DNA of 6,873 bases. Origin: a virus (lineage: Duplodnaviria > Heunggongvirae > Uroviricota > Caudoviricetes). Positions 185 to 5,377 of the stretch are shown one piece after another. Within the stretch, counting starts at the first letter, position 1, and each line of letters begins with the position of its first letter. The position numbers and the translations under genes are program-made. The stretch is from positions 1 through 6,873 of the IMG/VR virus record IMGVR_UViG_2681813268_000014; one strand, given 5' to 3'. The notes below the pieces were generated by a model. The model had not been told where the DNA came from. It did no database searches and saw nothing but the letters and a program-made list of their open reading frames with translations.

Positions 185-442
185 TTGAACAACCAGACAA
201 TGACTTTTACCCCTGAACAATTGCGTAAACACGCGCAGGAAATGCTGCGTCATGCTGAACAACTCGAAAAAACGGGCATAACAAAAGACGCTATCCGTAA
301 AGATATGGTACCCGCGCTTCGGGAACTGATGCAGGCGAAGCATCGCGCACAGAAAGCAGTAGATGAGCTGGTGGACTGTGTGGCAGAGCTGGAAACCAGA
401 GTCGGAAAGTTTGAAAAACTGGTGCAGGAGGTGCTGCGCTGA
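185..442 (+). CDS. Hypothetical small phage protein (85 aa, charged, helix-rich), first gene of the rusA-Q operon
   Basis: ORF 185..442 with TTG start and GGAG 7 nt upstream (alternative ATG at 200). Stop TGA overlaps the rusA ATG (ATGA at 442-445 region), indicating translational coupling. Confidence 0.55.
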   Translation: MNNQTMTFTPEQLRKHAQEMLRHAEQLEKTGITKDAIRKDMVPALRELMQAKHRAQKAVDELVDCVAELETRVGKFEKLVQEVLR

Positions 443-816
443 TGCGCCATGAGTTTATTTTACCTTATCCGCCGACGGTGAATACTTACTGGCGACGTCG
501 TGACAACACATATTTTGTATCAAAAGCCGGTGAGCGTTATCGCCGGGATGTGGCGCTTATTGTCCGTCAGCAGCGACTGAAATTAAGCCTGTCCGGAAGA
601 CTGGCGATAAAGATTATTGCAGAGCCACCGGATAAGCGCCGTCGTGACCTGGACAATATCCTGAAAGCACCACTGGATGCACTGACACATGCGGGAGTGT
701 TAATGGACGATGAGCAGTTTGATGAAATCAATATCGTTCGTGGTCAGCCAGTATCTGGTGGACGTCTGGGGGTGAAGATTTACCCCATAATGCATGAAGA
801 GCAGGTCAAAAAATGA
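442..816 (+). CDS. rusA: RusA-family crossover junction endodeoxyribonuclease (Holliday junction resolvase)
   Basis: 124-aa product with the RusA signatures LPYPPTVNTYWRRR and DKRRRDLDNILKAPLDALTHAGVLMDDEQ, closely matching E. coli RusA (LPWPPSNNRYYR ... [27 protein letters not shown]) as recalled from memory. Conserved lambdoid position just upstream of Q. Confidence 0.9.
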   Translation: MRHEFILPYPPTVNTYWRRRDNTYFVSKAGERYRRDVALIVRQQRLKLSLSGRLAIKIIAEPPDKRRRDLDNILKAPLDALTHAGVLMDDEQFDEINIVRGQPVSGGRLGVKIYPIMHEEQVKK

Positions 817-1667
817 AACTGGAAGATTTACCGAAATACTACTCCCCAAAATCCCCTTGCCTGACCGATGCATCGGCCTCAACGTCAAAAGATGCGCTGA
901 GTATCACTGATGTGATGGCCGCGCAGGGCATGACACAGAATCGGGCTGAGATGGGGTTTTCTGCGTTCCTGGGGAAAATGGGCATCAGTATGAATGACAG
1001 GGCGCGGGCAACAGAATTACTGGCAGATTATGCACTCAGTCGGTGCGATCGTGTGGCGGCGTTGAGAAAACTTCCGGCAGAAATAAAACCGGTAGTGATG
1101 CGCATTATGGCTTCGTACGCTTTTGAGGATTATGCCCGCAGCGCAGCGAGTAAAAAGCAGTGCCCTTGTTGCTATGGGGAAAAATTTATTGAAAGCGTAG
1201 TTTTTACAAACAAGGTCCAGTATCCGGATGGTAAGCCGCCGGTATGGGCAAAGTGTACGAAAGGTGTGTATCCGTCTTACTGGGAAGAATGGAAAAAAGT
1301 CAGGGAGGTGGTAAAAGTTGCCTGTCCGGAGTGTGGCGGAAAGGGTGAGGTTTCCACCGCCTGTAAGGATTGCCGTGGGCGTGGTGTCGCCATTCATCGT
1401 GAAGAGTCGGTAAAACGTGGTATGCCTGTTATCAGAGACTGCCAGCGTTGTGGTGGTCGTGGCTATGAAAGACTACCATCAACGGAGGCATTTAATGCTA
1501 TATGCGAGGTGACAAACCAGATAACACGCGCGTCATGGGAAAAAACAGTTAAGAAATTCTATGATGCGCTGGTGACTCGGTTTGATATTGAAGAAGCATG
1601 GGCTGAGCGGCAGTTAAAAAAGGTAACTAGGTTGATTTTTCCGGAATCTGTGGTAAATTCGTCATAA
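813..1667 (+). CDS. Late-gene antitermination protein Q-like, large zinc-finger variant
   Basis: 284-aa ORF whose ATG overlaps the rusA stop (ATGA). Contains three DnaJ-like CxxCxGxG motifs (CPECGGKG, CKDCRGRG, CQRCGGRG) plus additional CxxC. Position between rusA and the pR'/tR'/tRNA block is the canonical Q position; family assignment rests on synteny and motifs, not a homology search. Confidence 0.65.
   Translation: MKLEDLPKYYSPKSPCLTDASASTSKDALSITDVMAAQGMTQNRAEMGFSAFLGKMGISMNDRARATELLADYALSRCDRVAALRKLPAEIKPVVMRIMASYAFEDYARSAASKKQCPCCYGEKFIESVVFTNKVQYPDGKPPVWAKCTKGVYPSYWEEWKKVREVVKVACPECGGKGEVSTACKDCRGRGVAIHREESVKRGMPVIRDCQRCGGRGYERLPSTEAFNAICEVTNQITRASWEKTVKKFYDALVTRFDIEEAWAERQLKKVTRLIFPESVVNSS
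1632..1659 (+). promoter_or_regulatory. Candidate late promoter pR' (-35 TTGATT, 16-bp spacer, -10 TAAATT) overlapping the 3' end of Q
   Basis: Sigma70-like hexamers read from sequence, predicted start near 1666-1668. Placement directly after Q and before an intrinsic terminator matches lambdoid pR'/qut architecture. Confidence 0.4.
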
Positions 1668-1769: not shown

Positions 1770-1845
1770 GGCCCTTTAGCTCAGTGGTGAGAGCGAGCGA
1801 CTCATAATCGCCAGGTCGCTGGTTCAAATCCAGCAAGGGCCACCA
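1770..1845 (+). tRNA. ileZ: tRNA-Ile2 (anticodon CAU, lysidine-type, reads AUA); phage-borne ileZ-like
   Basis: 76-nt cloverleaf folded by hand: acceptor GGCCCTT/AAGGGCC, D-stem GCTC/GAGC, anticodon loop CTCATAA, T-arm GCTGG-TTCAAAT-CCAGC, discriminator A, encoded CCA. Near-identical in architecture to E. coli ileX, including the C4-G69/C5-G68 acceptor pairs. Confidence 0.88.
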
Positions 1846-2132: not shown

Positions 2133-2486
2133 TTGATTGAGTGTTTGTTATACGGTCTAATGGTTTTTTCAGCATTAAATATTTATCATTCATATGGTGT
2201 GGGTAGAGTGAATATTGATGAGGCGTCGGGGTGTTTCATCCTTAGGCAGCGTATTGATATAGTCAATGCAGCACGAGCAAAGGCCTTCAGCCGTTTGACA
2301 GTTTTGTTCTGTACTCCTGATCGTCTTTCGGGAAGAGACGTTATTATTCTGAATAGTGATGCTATACAGAGGGTTTGCGATGAGTTCATGGTTGCTAATT
2401 CAGAATTATTTGCTCTTGTTCAGGAGTACAACAGAATAGCCAGGACCTGTGGTATGGATGAACTTCGGATTACTCATCTGGGGTAG
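2133..2486 (+). CDS. Hypothetical cargo protein (117 aa from TTG, ~108 aa from ATG at 2160), no recognisable family
   Basis: Longest ORF in the segment immediately downstream of the phage tRNAs, in late-transcript orientation. No strong Shine-Dalgarno sequence; no motif I recognise. Confidence 0.4.
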   Translation: MIECLLYGLMVFSALNIYHSYGVGRVNIDEASGCFILRQRIDIVNAARAKAFSRLTVLFCTPDRLSGRDVIILNSDAIQRVCDEFMVANSELFALVQEYNRIARTCGMDELRITHLG

Positions 2487-2589
2487 ATACATATCTGGAT
2501 TATCACCTGTTACGGTAAAAAGTGATTGCTTACTGTTTTTGTGAATGGCATTGCAGCAGCCGGATAATGTCAGTGCTGGCTGACGGTGT

Positions 2590-2597
2590 GCTGGTGG
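2590..2597 (+). other. Chi site (5'-GCTGGTGG-3')
   Basis: Exact octamer match read from sequence; the only Chi octamer I found on the + strand of this window. Confidence 0.6.
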
Positions 2598-2689
2598 CGG
2601 GTGTGGTGGTTGTTGCTTTCCCGTTGCTGAAAAAGAAAACGCCAGACTGTTAGCCGGGTATCAGTTAGCGGGAGAAATTTTTAAATACT

Positions 2690-2976
2690 TCACAATTCAG
2701 GCGGTTGACTGTTGTCTGGTTTGCGGGGAGTTTGTTAAAAGAAACTGGCATGGTGAATCCCCCTGTGCGGAGGGGCAATCAGCGAGTAGGTATATGGGAT
2801 AATCGCGGATTCAGGTGCTGGTACTGAATTCACCGGGAGGCACCCGGCATCATGCAATGGCACATAGCGCCACTCTCCAGCCCTCTCCGGAGGGGCTTTT
2901 CTGTGCCGGATACATCACAGTTTCTGGAACCTTAGGTACTACAGTATCAGTCAGGGTGCTATATTTTCAGATGTGA
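2690..2976 (+). repeat. Copy 1 of a duplicated structured element (candidate sRNA gene) ending in an intrinsic terminator
   Basis: 2690-2897 aligns to 4798-5006 with one substitution (T2850 vs C4958) and one 1-nt indel in a C-run. Homology resumes after a ~62-bp copy-1-specific insertion (2898-2959) through TATATT...TCAGATGTGA (to 2976). Nested hairpins are listed in the findings. Confidence 0.85.
2879..2902 (+). terminator. Intrinsic terminator at the 3' end of repeat copy 1 (AGCCCTC-tccg-GAGGGGCT + TTTTCT)
   Basis: GC-rich 7/8-bp hairpin with tetraloop followed by a U-tract on the + strand. Confidence 0.6.
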
Positions 2977-3129
2977 TGAAAGCCTGTCAGCAGGCAGGGC
3001 GTATCGGAAATGACCCAGTAGAGAAAACGTTGACTCAGATACCGGTGCTGAGTTACCGGGAAACCGGCATCACATGACCGCTATCCTGAGGTGTACTGGC
3101 AATAGCGGACACTACCATTTGTTCTTTTT

Positions 3130-3948
3130 TTAAGCAGCCATCTGATGATATTTTTCCCTGAAGGCTGCCGGGGAGATATTCCCCAGACGAGAGTGACGAC
3201 GCTGACGATTGTAGAAAATCTCAATGTATTCCCGTATTACTGAGATGGCTTCATCCCGGTTATTAAAACGATAGTGGCTCAGGCTCTCATTTTTCAGCGT
3301 TCCCCAGAAGCTTTCCATCGGAGCGTTGTCGTAACAGTTACCTTTACGCGACATTGATGTTTTCAGACCAGACTGCTCCTGTATGACCCGGTAATCGTAT
3401 GCGCAGTACTGTGAACCTCGATCAGAGTGGTGGATTAGCCCGGCAGGTGGGCGCTGGCTCCTGAGCGCCATAAACAGGGCTTTACCTGTCAGCTCTTTTG
3501 TCATGCGCTCTCCCATGGCGTAGCCGACAATTTCGCACGTATAAACATCTTTGATGCCAGCGAGGTACAACCATCCCTCCTGTGTGGCAACATACGTCAG
3601 GTCCGCCACCCAGACCTGATTTGGTGCTGTAGGAGCGAACGTCTGGTTCAGCAGATTTGGCGCAACTGGCAGATTGTGGTTCGAGTTCGTAGTCGCTCTG
3701 AACTTGCGTTTCTGCTTACAGCGTAGCCTTAGCTCCTTACGAAGACGTGCCAGTCGGTCACGACCAACGATGATGCCATTCTCTGCCAGCTCCGTCTGGA
3801 GCCGCCGGGTTCCATATGTTTCGCGAGTGCGGATATGTGCCACCTTAATCTCCAGTTTTAGCCGCTCATCACTTTGTTTTCTGTCTGAGGGTTCATGCTG
3901 TACCCAGTTGTAATAACCGCTCCTGGATACACCAAATACCTGACACAT
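3130..3948 (-). CDS. IS3-family transposase OrfB (DDE integrase-like catalytic domain), expressed as an OrfAB fusion by -1 frameshift
   Basis: 272-aa ORF from the first ATG; the same frame stays open upstream to the slippery site near 4029-4035. Contains characteristic IS3-family OrfB segments (HHSDRGSQY..., KGNCYDNAPMESFWGTLKNE). Confidence 0.9.
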   Translation of the reverse strand: MCQVFGVSRSGYYNWVQHEPSDRKQSDERLKLEIKVAHIRTRETYGTRRLQTELAENGIIVGRDRLARLRKELRLRCKQKRKFRATTNSNHNLPVAPNLLNQTFAPTAPNQVWVADLTYVATQEGWLYLAGIKDVYTCEIVGYAMGERMTKELTGKALFMALRSQRPPAGLIHHSDRGSQYCAYDYRVIQEQSGLKTSMSRKGNCYDNAPMESFWGTLKNESLSHYRFNNRDEAISVIREYIEIFYNRQRRHSRLGNISPAAFREKYHQMAA

Positions 3949-3983: not shown

Positions 3984-4286
3984 TTAACGCGTATTTTTCA
4001 GCGACTCCTGTGCAAAATACGCTGTTGCTTTTTTTAATATATCTCGCTCAAGTCGTGCTTCATTTAAAGCCTTACGCAGTTGCATAACTTCAGATTCCAG
4101 CTCAGCCACTGTGCGGGAGCCTGGTGTATTGAGCCCTTTTCTTGCGGCGGTAACCCATTGTCCTAAAGTGCCTTCAGGAAGAGATAATCGGGAAGCGCCT
4201 TCACTGATCGAAAGTTGATTTTCAGGAACCGTTTTGACGGCTTCGGCTTTAAACTCCGTAGAGTAACGTTGGGTTTTTCTGCTCAT
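3984..4286 (-). CDS. IS3-family transposase OrfA (helix-turn-helix / leucine-zipper DNA-binding protein)
   Basis: 100-aa ORF with AAGGAG Shine-Dalgarno 7 nt upstream of the ATG. Sequence MSRKTQRYSTEFKAEAV...LERDILKKATAYFAQESL is typical of IS3-group OrfA and closely matches what I recall of IS600 OrfA. Confidence 0.9.
   Translation of the reverse strand: MSRKTQRYSTEFKAEAVKTVPENQLSISEGASRLSLPEGTLGQWVTAARKGLNTPGSRTVAELESEVMQLRKALNEARLERDILKKATAYFAQESLKNTR
4029..4035 (-). other. Programmed -1 ribosomal frameshift site A_AAA_AAA linking orfA to orfB
   Basis: T7 run on the + strand equals A7 on the coding strand, positioned in the orfA zero frame as TTA-AAA-AAA-GCA (L-K-K-A). The orfB frame is exactly -1 relative to orfA (coordinate arithmetic from the stops at 3984 and 3130). 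Confidence 0.75.
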
Positions 4287-4797: not shown

Positions 4798-5032
4798 TCA
4801 CAATTCAGGCGGTTGACTGTTGTCTGGTTTGCGGGGAGTTTGTTAAAAGAAACTGGCATGGTGAATCCCCCTGTGCGGAGGGGCAATCAGCGAGTAGGTA
4901 TATGGGATAATCGCGGATTCAGGTGCTGGTACTGAATTCACCGGGAGGCACCCGGCACCATGCAATGGCACATAGCGCCACTCTCCAGCCCCTCTCCGGA
5001 GGGGCTGTTTATATTGATTTTGTCAGATGTGA
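4798..5032 (+). repeat. Copy 2 of the duplicated structured element (candidate sRNA gene) ending in an intrinsic terminator
   Basis: Aligns to copy 1 at ~99% identity over ~209 bp with a tail match (TATATT...AGATGTGA). A promoter-like TTGATA-N16-TATATC lies at 4772-4799, immediately upstream. Confidence 0.85.
4987..5015 (+). terminator. Intrinsic terminator at the 3' end of repeat copy 2 (AGCCCCTC-tccg-GAGGGGCT + GTTTATATT)
   Basis: Perfect 8-bp GC-rich hairpin with tetraloop followed by a T-rich tract, read from sequence. Confidence 0.55.
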
Positions 5033-5041
5033 GTAAACTCC

Positions 5042-5377
5042 TTATGGACTTTGTTGTTTTAGCCCATAAGGACATATTTGCAGAGTGCAACGGTTATTAA
5101 AGCATTCATTCAATACGTTATCTGTATTTGTAGGGCATTCCTGGCTGTTTTTGATTAAATTCCAGAATGTTTTATTGAATGGTACTACGTTGTAAATGGT
5201 TACAGGTAGCACTTTGTTATTGAGCATGATGCCTGTGTGAGTCAGTGTAAATATACTTTCAGGAGGTAAGAAAGCATCCGATTGATACCAGATTATTAAT
5301 TTTATTTTACTCCATATGACTGAAAAAGATATTCCGCATGATGGCTGGATAACTGTATCAATCACAATCCACTTCAT
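5042..5377 (-). CDS. Hypothetical Cys-rich small protein (111 aa) encoded antisense to the late operon in AT-rich cargo DNA
   Basis: ATG preceded by AAGGAA Shine-Dalgarno at 5-6 nt spacing (coding strand AAACAAGGAAACTAA-ATG). Six cysteines, six AUA codons. Ends 5 bp from the repeat-2 homology tail and 27 bp from its terminator. No family recognised. Confidence 0.4.

What the first reader, a model, noticed from the sequence alone, without database searches (positions are those of the whole stretch)
2567..2653. Possible 28-aa hydrophobic peptide ORF (MSVLADGVLVAGVVVVAFPLLKKKTPDC) overlapping the Chi site
A short ORF encodes a single predicted transmembrane-like stretch followed by KKK, reminiscent of small membrane proteins and type I toxin peptides. 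It has only a weak GGA ribosome-binding site, and the hydrophobicity may simply reflect a GT-rich tract containing the Chi octamer. Speculative.
Basis: inference. Interest (0 to 1): 0.22.

Follow-up and report, generated by a model that had tools for sequence, protein, structure and literature searches.

The report
Truncated relic of phage tciB gene
The 28-codon hydrophobic ORF is real, but it is only the back half of an already catalogued small phage membrane-protein gene (DUF3927/TciB) that has lost its start, its first membrane segment and its TerB partner gene here, so it is most likely a dead remnant and not a toxin.

Summary
The ORF (2567-2653) and the Chi octamer (2590-2597) are present exactly as described. 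The ORF is not a free-standing gene. It is the 3' part of a 43-codon open frame (2522-2653) that RefSeq already annotates as a 'DUF3927 family protein' (Pfam PF13064, 95.6 bits; PHROG 1470 'TciB-like'). Intact family members are 50-60 aa with two hydrophobic segments. In every intact locus examined here (85 loci, 35 distinct genes) they sit directly behind a TerB-domain gene, usually with overlapping stop and start codons, as in the phage P1/P7 tciA-tciB pair. They evolve under purifying selection (dN/dS about 0.15-0.4). In the window the TerB gene is replaced by an unrelated ORF. The Shine-Dalgarno GGAG has become GGAT, the GTG start has become GTT, and 29 nt of the first membrane segment are missing, which shifts the frame. 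The 28-aa ORF begins at an internal Met codon. Chi is a by-product of the V-L-V-A codons: only 15 of 27 distinct intact genes encoding that motif carry it. There is no antisense promoter, no known antitoxin RNA, and no complementarity to the neighbouring STnc100 sRNA. The relic occurs in 1185 of 5426 complete E. coli genomes. Verdict: an ordinary, already annotated, probably non-functional gene remnant; the type I toxin reading is not supported.

The parts
2567..2653 (+). The 28-codon ORF of the finding. It corresponds to the C-terminal half of a DUF3927/TciB protein: part of the linker, the second hydrophobic segment and the KKK tail. It begins at an internal Met codon of the ancestral gene.
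   Evidence: Pfam PF13064 58.3 bits, profile positions 26-53 of 53. Alignments with intact 54-57 aa proteins.
2522..2653 (+). 43-codon open frame from a GTG, MIAYCFCEWHCSSRIMSV...TPDC. RefSeq/PGAP annotates it as 'DUF3927 family protein' WP_000562553.1. Its first 11 or so residues are out-of-frame or junction sequence and are not homologous to the family's N-terminus at the protein level.
   Evidence: Pfam 95.6 bits. PHROG 1470 'TciB-like', E = 7.8e-13. DNA alignment A1.
2494..2553 (+). Degraded 5' end of the ancestral tciB-like gene. It holds the relic of the terB 3' end with SD GGAG changed to GGAT, the start GTG changed to GTT (2509-2511), and an ancestral frame reading TVK..LLFL that then hits TGA at 2542-2544. 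It is 29 nt shorter than the 57-aa allele (gaps of 11, 4 and 14 nt), which removes hydrophobic segment 1 and shifts the frame.
   Evidence: Alignment A1 of the window against L004 and L008; sequence read.
2590..2597 (+). Chi octamer GCTGGTGG, formed by the codons GTG-CTG-GTG-GCG of V-L-V-A. It is co-oriented with the late genes.
   Evidence: 15 of 27 distinct intact genes encoding DG[VM]LVA carry Chi and 12 do not. G2590A removes it in 5 relic loci.
2133..2486 (+). ORF117 (phrog_2873, unknown function). It occupies the place that the TerB/TciA gene holds in intact cassettes.
   Evidence: E = 3.8e-70. No TerB match. Always found upstream of the relic and never upstream of intact genes.
2719..2908 (+). 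STnc100 prophage sRNA with an intrinsic terminator at 2879-2897. It lies 66 nt downstream of the ORF and is also present downstream of intact tciB genes.
   Evidence: Rfam RF02076, 122.5 bits. Terminator. Shared downstream sequence in A1.
813..1667 (+). Late antiterminator Q gene. It is followed by a terminator-like hairpin at 1707-1726 and by tRNA genes at 1770-1845 and 1946-2022. This places the ORF in the Q-dependent late transcript, in the moron region between Q and the lysis genes.

Best explanation
The ORF is the 3' relic of a tciB-like (DUF3927) gene in the moron region of a lambdoid prophage, between Q plus tRNA genes and the lysis cassette. In its intact form the gene encodes a 50-60 aa protein with two hydrophobic segments joined by a conserved DF(S/T)xx..MSxLADG linker. 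It is translated by coupling to the TerB-domain gene just upstream: a GTGA (or equivalent) stop/start overlap, with a GGAG 8 nt ahead of the start. In the lineage of this window, a recombination replaced the TerB gene with an unrelated ORF. The junction is near 2494. The tciB 5' end then decayed or was already decayed: SD GGAG to GGAT, start GTG to GTT, and 29 nt fewer in the first hydrophobic segment, which shifts the frame. The unchanged 3' half happens to stay open from a GTG (43 codons) or from an internal ATG (28 codons). Gene callers therefore still label it 'DUF3927 family protein'. Shown here: the homology, the missing parts, the lost partner, and Chi as a codon by-product. Inferred: the relic is not productively translated and has no function. 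It persists because it is young and because it hitch-hikes in a very successful prophage module. Also inferred, for the intact pair: TciB acts as the small membrane partner or anchor of the soluble TerB-like TciA. That function is itself unproven.
For: (1) Family membership: Pfam PF13064 95.6 bits (43 aa) and 58.3 bits (28 aa); PHROG 1470 'TciB-like'; RefSeq annotation.
(2) Intact relatives are 54-57 aa, e.g. MTVKMRLAVVALLLFLVVMVVMVDFSSRIMSVLADGVLVAGVVVVAFPLLKKKASGD. In a profile search of 1.84 billion representatives, only 92 clusters match, and the typical match is 50-64 aa covering profile positions 1-50.
(3) Every intact locus has a TerB gene ending at the DUF3927 start, with TerB identity ranging from 38 to 100%. 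P7 has terB-upf69.4 (54 aa, 89.8 bits).
(4) Intact genes are under purifying selection in both halves: dN/dS 0.15-0.4 with dS often above 1.
(5) Alignment A1 shows GGAG to GGAT, GTG to GTT and 29 missing nt, then near identity from CAGCAGCCGGATAATG onward.
(6) All relic loci have ORF117 upstream and no TerB gene.
(7) Relic alleles carry changes at family-invariant residues: L19P, G22C and G22S in the LADG motif, M16I which removes the ATG, and a nonsense codon at codon 8.
(8) Neither candidate start has a usable SD.
(9) P1 tciA/B/C are dispensable for lytic growth (PMC10695390).
Against: The relic frame is intact in 120 of 123 sampled loci. Within the 28 codons, the allelic changes are 6 synonymous against 5 non-synonymous, fewer non-synonymous than the roughly 3:1 neutral expectation. 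This could reflect residual constraint. It could equally reflect gene conversion from intact paralogues in co-resident prophages, or simply too few events; the test has little power. The relic is very common, in 1185 of 5426 complete E. coli genomes, and it is carried by a sequenced phage record, mEp460_ev081. It lies in the Q-dependent late transcript, so it is very probably transcribed during induction. No expression data were available to show that it is not translated.
Confidence: 0.8

Rival explanations
1. The truncated gene is still expressed, from the GTG at 2522 or the ATG at 2567 on the Q-dependent late transcript. It yields a single-pass membrane peptide that has kept or acquired a function, for example perturbing the membrane late in infection or interfering with intact TciB/TciA made by co-resident prophages.
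For: The frame is open in 120 of 123 loci. The 28 codons show 6 synonymous and 5 non-synonymous changes. The relic is present in 22% of complete E. coli genomes and in the sequenced phage record mEp460_ev081. The peptide has a 15-residue apolar stretch followed by KKK.
Against: There is no usable SD at either start, and translational coupling is lost along with the TerB gene. Alleles hit residues that are invariant in the family, and one allele removes the ATG. The apolar stretch of 15 residues is short for a stand-alone membrane span. Overall divergence among relics is below 1%, so an intact frame is expected even without selection.
Confidence: 0.1
2. The segment is retained as a DNA or RNA element and not as a coding sequence. 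It could serve as a Chi site that protects or recombines phage DNA attacked by RecBCD from the cos end, or as the upstream leader or promoter region of the STnc100 sRNA.
For: Chi is present and co-oriented with the late genes, as is the second Chi at 367. The relic junction creates a promoter-like TTGTGA-18-GATAAT at 2539-2568 on the + strand. The sequence from the ORF's 3' end into STnc100 is shared by relic and intact loci.
Against: Chi is absent from 12 of 27 distinct intact genes that encode the same motif, and it is lost in 5 relic loci through G2590A. The promoter-like site matches only 9 of 12 positions, and such sites are barely more frequent than in shuffles (5 found, 2.1 expected). 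RNA folding of 2500-2718 is unremarkable (z = 0.34). The Rfam STnc100 model starts at 2719, about 150 nt downstream.
Confidence: 0.07
3. It is a type I toxin-antitoxin toxin peptide controlled by an antisense or trans-acting sRNA.
For: The only support is superficial: a short hydrophobic peptide with a basic tail, and an sRNA gene (STnc100) 66 nt downstream.
Against: The ORF is a fragment of a longer conserved gene whose intact form is co-translated with a TerB protein. There is no minus-strand promoter-like site between 2111 and 2963. No Sok, Sib, Rdl, IstR, OhsC or SymR-type Rfam hit occurs anywhere in the window. The duplex energy between STnc100 and the translation-initiation region is no better than 77% of shuffles. 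There is no PADLOC hit.
Confidence: 0.02

Closest known systems
TciB of phage P1 / Upf69.4 of phage P7 (Pfam DUF3927, PHROG 1470), partner of TciA (TerB-like)
   Same: The C-terminal 28-32 residues (SSRIMSVLADGVLVAGVVVVAFPLLKKK) are homologous to the linker and second hydrophobic segment of this family. Like the lambdoid-phage versions, the window's copy lies in a phage accessory region next to tRNA genes.
   Different: The window's copy lacks the N-terminal K/R-x-R...LLFL...DF half, the start codon, the SD and the upstream TerB gene. [quoted passage not shown] No function has been demonstrated, and P1 tciABC are non-essential (PMC10695390).
Intact terB-DUF3927 cassettes of E. coli lambdoid prophages, e.g. 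phage JLK-2012 tciA/tciB (RefSeq 'tellurite resistance TerB family protein' + 'DUF3927 family protein')
   Same: They occupy the same position between Q/tRNAs and the esterase and lysis genes, and the same STnc100-type sequence lies downstream. DNA is nearly identical from the linker to the KKK codons.
   Different: The intact cassettes encode 54-57 aa with a GTGA stop/start overlap with terB. They are found in 799 of 5426 complete genomes, against 1185 for the relic type.
Type I toxin peptides (TisB, ShoB, Ibs, Ldr, Hok families)
   Same: Small size, one apolar stretch and a basic C-terminal tail.
   Different: There is no antitoxin RNA, no dedicated promoter or 5' UTR, and no homology to these families. 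The ORF originated as a gene fragment.
Chi recombination hotspot (RecBCD)
   Same: Exact octamer 5'-GCTGGTGG-3'.
   Different: It is not conserved independently of the coding sequence. It appears or disappears with synonymous codon choice in V-L-V-A.

Membership tests
DUF3927 / TciB (Pfam PF13064) | Significant match to the family HMM above the gathering score | tested here: met
   95.6 bits for the 43-aa frame and 58.3 bits for the 28-aa ORF, against a cut-off of 25. PHROG 1470 E = 7.8e-13.
DUF3927 / TciB (Pfam PF13064) | Full-length architecture: 50-60 aa, two hydrophobic segments, conserved N-terminal K/R-x-R...LLFL...DF motif | tested here: not met
   The window has a single apolar stretch (residues 22-36 of the 43-aa frame). 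The N-terminal half is replaced by IAYCFCEWHC. The 28-aa ORF covers only profile positions 26-53.
DUF3927 / TciB (Pfam PF13064) | Sits immediately downstream of a TerB-domain gene (tciA) with abutting or overlapping stop and start codons | tested here: not met
   All 85 intact loci have a TerB gene ending at the start. The window and all relic loci have ORF117 (phrog_2873) and no TerB match.
DUF3927 / TciB (Pfam PF13064) | Family start codon and Shine-Dalgarno preserved | tested here: not met
   GTG to GTT at 2509-2511, GGAG to GGAT, and a 29-nt deficit that shifts the frame.
Type I toxin-antitoxin toxin | Cognate antisense or trans-encoded antitoxin sRNA with complementarity to the toxin mRNA | tested here: not met
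   No minus-strand promoter-like site near the ORF. No antitoxin RNA family in the Rfam scan at E <= 1. The STnc100 duplex is no better than shuffles.
Type I toxin-antitoxin toxin | Independent toxin transcription unit (own promoter, structured 5' UTR) | tested here: not met
   The only + strand promoter-like site (2539-2568) has its -10 overlapping the ATG, so the transcript would start inside the ORF. The fold z-score of 2500-2718 is 0.34.
Type I toxin-antitoxin toxin | Growth arrest or membrane damage on overexpression | not testable with these tools
   Needs an experiment.
Chi hotspot as a selected element | The octamer is conserved beyond what the coding sequence requires | tested here: not met
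   15 of 27 distinct genes encoding DG[VM]LVA carry Chi and 12 do not. It is lost in 5 relic loci.

The most novel reading that the evidence does not exclude
The widespread 5'-truncated TciB relic, found in about 22% of complete E. coli genomes, is translated from the late phage transcript as a 28-43 aa single-pass peptide with a function of its own. That function might be membrane perturbation or antagonism of intact TciA/TciB pairs from co-resident prophages. This would be a small-protein gene born from a pseudogene.
Probability: 0.06. Interest if true: 0.4.

Novelty: already known. Interest (0 to 1): 0.08.

Why it matters
It matters little for biology. The main value is for curation. A RefSeq protein annotated in over a thousand complete E. 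coli genomes as 'DUF3927 family protein' (43 aa; elsewhere called as 28 aa) is a start-less, frameshifted fragment of the TerB-linked tciB gene. The Pfam model scores this fragment higher than intact members (95.6 against 70.8 bits), so the family definition itself is probably contaminated by relics. The more interesting open question lies outside the window: what the conserved, translationally coupled TerB-TciB pair does in P1-like and lambdoid phages.

Tried and rejected
- tblastn of the 57-aa protein against the phage collection found nothing, most likely because of the low-complexity filter.
An exact 24-nt junction pattern scan of viral contigs replaced them.
- The genome-contig scan gave only one locus.
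- The P1 genome paper (PMC523184) is not held. The 'TciB' text search was swamped by Trypanosoma 'TcIb' papers.
- NCBIfam has no model for the ORF. PADLOC has no meaningful hit for the ORF, the intact protein or ORF117; TerB gave only a marginal E = 0.0035.
- There is no PDB relative of DUF3927. TerB matches 2JXU.
- AlphaFold on a 7-sequence alignment gave one continuous helix covering residues 3-55 (pLDDT 84.8). This neither confirms nor excludes a helical hairpin.
- The E. coli K-12 e14/iraM region contains no copy of the relic.
- Complementarity between STnc100 and the ORF's initiation region, and special RNA structure over 2500-2718, were both tested and rejected.
- The type I toxin reading and the 'Chi explains the hydrophobicity' reading were considered and rejected, as set out above.

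Full report
**Observation**

The window is part of the late regulatory and moron region of an E. coli lambdoid prophage. Its features, in order, are:
- RusA (442-816);
- antiterminator Q (813-1667);
- a terminator-like hairpin (1707-1726);
- tRNA(CAT) at 1770-1845 and tRNA-Arg(TCT) at 1946-2022;
- a 117-codon ORF (2133-2486);
- the ORF in question;
- an STnc100 sRNA (2719-2908);
- an IS3-family element;
- a second STnc100 copy (4827-5016);
- an iraM-like gene on the minus strand.

The 'weak GGA' sits only 2 nt before the ATG. The frame is open upstream to a GTG at 2522, giving 43 codons. A 28-codon ORF means nothing by itself. Its significance comes from homology.

**What it is**

RefSeq annotates the 43-codon frame as 'DUF3927 family protein' WP_000562553.1.
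- Pfam PF13064 matches with 95.6 bits.
- The 28 aa alone match with 58.3 bits, but only to profile positions 26-53 of 53.
- PHROGs places it in phrog_1470, 'TciB-like'.

A search of 5.8 billion proteins returned three kinds of relative:
- 43-aa forms;
- 28-aa forms. These are the same locus with the ATG chosen as start: the P0035 allele is encoded in loci whose frame is open to the GTG;
- 54-57-aa forms such as MTVKMRLAVVALLLFLVVMVVMVDFSSRIMSVLADGVLVAGVVVVAFPLLKKKASGD.

The long forms have two apolar stretches, residues 7-23 and 36-50. A profile search of 1.84 billion cluster representatives found only 92 matching clusters. The typical match is 50-64 aa long and covers profile positions 1-50. 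The native family architecture is therefore the long, two-segment form.

**Context of intact genes**

Every intact gene I retrieved lies directly behind a TerB-domain gene (PF05099, about 143 aa) that ends where the DUF3927 gene starts. In E. coli the junction is a GTGA overlap, with a GGAG 8 nt upstream of the start. The sample was 85 loci and 35 distinct DNA sequences, with the upstream TerB ranging from 38 to 100% identity.
- Phage JLK-2012 annotates the pair as tciA/tciB.
- Phage P7 has terB-upf69.4-upf69.6 between tRNA genes in the ban operon. Upf69.4 (54 aa) is a DUF3927 protein scoring 89.8 bits.

[quoted passage not shown] The genes are non-essential for P1 lytic growth by CRISPRi (PMC10695390).

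Across diverged lineages the intact gene shows dN/dS of about 0.15-0.4, with dS often above 1, in both its N-terminal half and its C-terminal 28 codons. It also shows conserved K/R-x-R, LLFL, DF and MSxLADGxLVAG motifs. It is a real protein-coding gene, and both halves are constrained.

**What happened in the window**

I aligned window 2440-2760 with intact loci (A1).
- Homology begins at about 2494, in the last codons of terB.
- The SD GGAG has become GGAT, and the start GTG has become GTT (2509-2511).
- The ancestral frame reads T-V-K, then after a deletion L-L-F-L, and then hits TGA at 2542-2544.
- Between ACGGTAAAAA and CAGCAGCCGG the window has 32 nt where the 57-aa allele has 61. The 29-nt deficit (gaps of 11, 4 and 14 nt) removes the first hydrophobic segment and shifts the frame.
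- From CAGCAGCCGGATAATG onward the sequence is almost identical to intact alleles.

Upstream, the TerB gene is replaced by ORF117 (phrog_2873, no TerB match). This association is absolute in my sample: all relic loci have ORF117, and no intact locus does.

By the usual criteria this is a gene remnant: lost start, lost SD, frameshift, internal deletion and lost partner gene.

**Is the relic still constrained?**

A 24-nt junction-specific pattern retrieved 123 relic loci.
- 120 keep the 43-codon frame.
- Two have a nonsense codon at codon 8.
- One has M16I, which removes the 28-aa ORF's ATG.
- One has an in-frame valine deletion.

In 80 well-aligned loci, the 28 codons carry 6 synonymous and 5 non-synonymous changes. 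The non-synonymous ones are L19P, G22S, G22C, V31I and V31A, three of which fall in the LADG motif, which is nearly invariant among intact genes. The segment has about twice the segregating-site density of its flanks. Protein databases also hold frameshifted and repeat-slippage alleles.

Relic copies differ from one another by less than 1% overall. An intact frame is therefore expected without selection, and the synonymous/non-synonymous ratio has little power. It could also be shaped by gene conversion from intact paralogues in co-resident prophages. I conclude 'probably non-functional' but cannot prove it.

The relic junction is present in 1185 of 5426 complete E. coli genomes. The intact terB-DUF3927 junction is present in 799 genomes, with a median of 4 copies each. 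The relic arrangement also occurs in the sequenced phage record mEp460_ev081.

**Chi**

Chi is formed by the codons GTG-CTG-GTG-GCG of V-L-V-A. Among 27 distinct intact genes that encode DG(V/M)LVA, 15 carry Chi and 12 do not, because of synonymous changes. In 5 relic loci, G2590A removes it. The peptide motif is the conserved entity, and Chi is a by-product.

The window's two Chi sites are both on the + strand, against 0.23 expected from shuffles. From my own knowledge, this matches the general Chi enrichment of E. coli DNA.

**Type I toxin idea**

This reading fails on every feature I could test.
- No promoter-like site lies on the minus strand anywhere near the ORF.
- The only + strand site (2539-2568, 9 of 12 matches) has its -10 overlapping the ATG, so any transcript would start inside the ORF.
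- The Rfam scan at E <= 1 finds tRNAs and STnc100 but no antitoxin RNA.
- The STnc100 duplex with the initiation region is no better than 77% of shuffles, and the region's fold is unremarkable at z = 0.34.
- PADLOC has no hit.

**Mechanism (inferred)**

For the intact pair, conserved translational coupling and the two apolar segments suggest that TciB is the small membrane partner of the soluble TerB-like TciA. TciA's nearest solved relative is TerB 2JXU. AlphaFold gave one long helix, which does not settle the topology.

For the window's relic, the most likely state is transcription as part of the Q-dependent late RNA with no productive translation.

**Verdict**

The feature is already known: an annotated Pfam/PHROG family member, though in truncated form. 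Interest is low.

Noticed in passing
window 2133-2486 (+): A 117-codon ORF matches phrog_2873 over its full length (E = 3.8e-70), but RefSeq leaves it unannotated in two near-identical genomes. Among 80 allelic loci it shows 14 non-synonymous and 4 synonymous changes, so there is no sign of constraint. It occupies the slot that the TerB/TciA gene holds in intact cassettes.
   Followed up: partly
window 2690-2883 and 4798-4991; STnc100 at 2719-2908 and 4827-5016 (+): Two 99%-identical 194-nt direct repeats each carry an STnc100 prophage sRNA (122 and 132 bits). They bracket about 2.1 kb that includes an IS3-family element (orfB 3130-3948 and orfA 3984-4286, both minus strand). A weak third STnc100-like hit lies at 2947-3135.
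   Followed up: partly
window 5042-5377 (-): An iraM-like anti-adapter gene (NF007393, 162 bits) lies just after the second STnc100 copy. It is about 71% identical at DNA level to K-12 iraM.
   Followed up: partly
Pfam PF13064 versus window 2522-2653: The Pfam DUF3927 model scores the truncated 43-aa relic (95.6 bits) higher than an intact 57-aa protein (70.8) or P7 Upf69.4 (89.8). This suggests that relic sequences contributed to the model.
   Followed up: no
L003-L013 and proteins P0056, P0062, P0065, P0094: Intact alleles differ in the length of hydrophobic segment 1 by VVM units (54, 57, 58 and 60 aa), consistent with slippage in a 9-nt GTGGTGATG repeat. The second segment also shows in-frame VLVAG or VLADG duplications.
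   Followed up: no
window 2567-2653 in 80 allelic loci: Segregating-site density is about 11.5 per 100 bp in the 28 codons, against 5-6 in the flanks. This may reflect gene conversion from intact paralogues in co-resident prophages or mutability of the GT-rich repeats.
   Followed up: no
window 367-374 (+): A second Chi octamer lies inside the 85-codon ORF upstream of rusA, in the same orientation as the one in the finding.
   Followed up: no
window 1770-1845: ARAGORN calls this tRNA-Met(CAT), whereas RefSeq annotates the equivalent gene as tRNA-Ile. From my own knowledge, this probably reflects a lysidine-modified CAT anticodon, as in the ileZ-type tRNAs of Stx-phage late regions.
   Followed up: no
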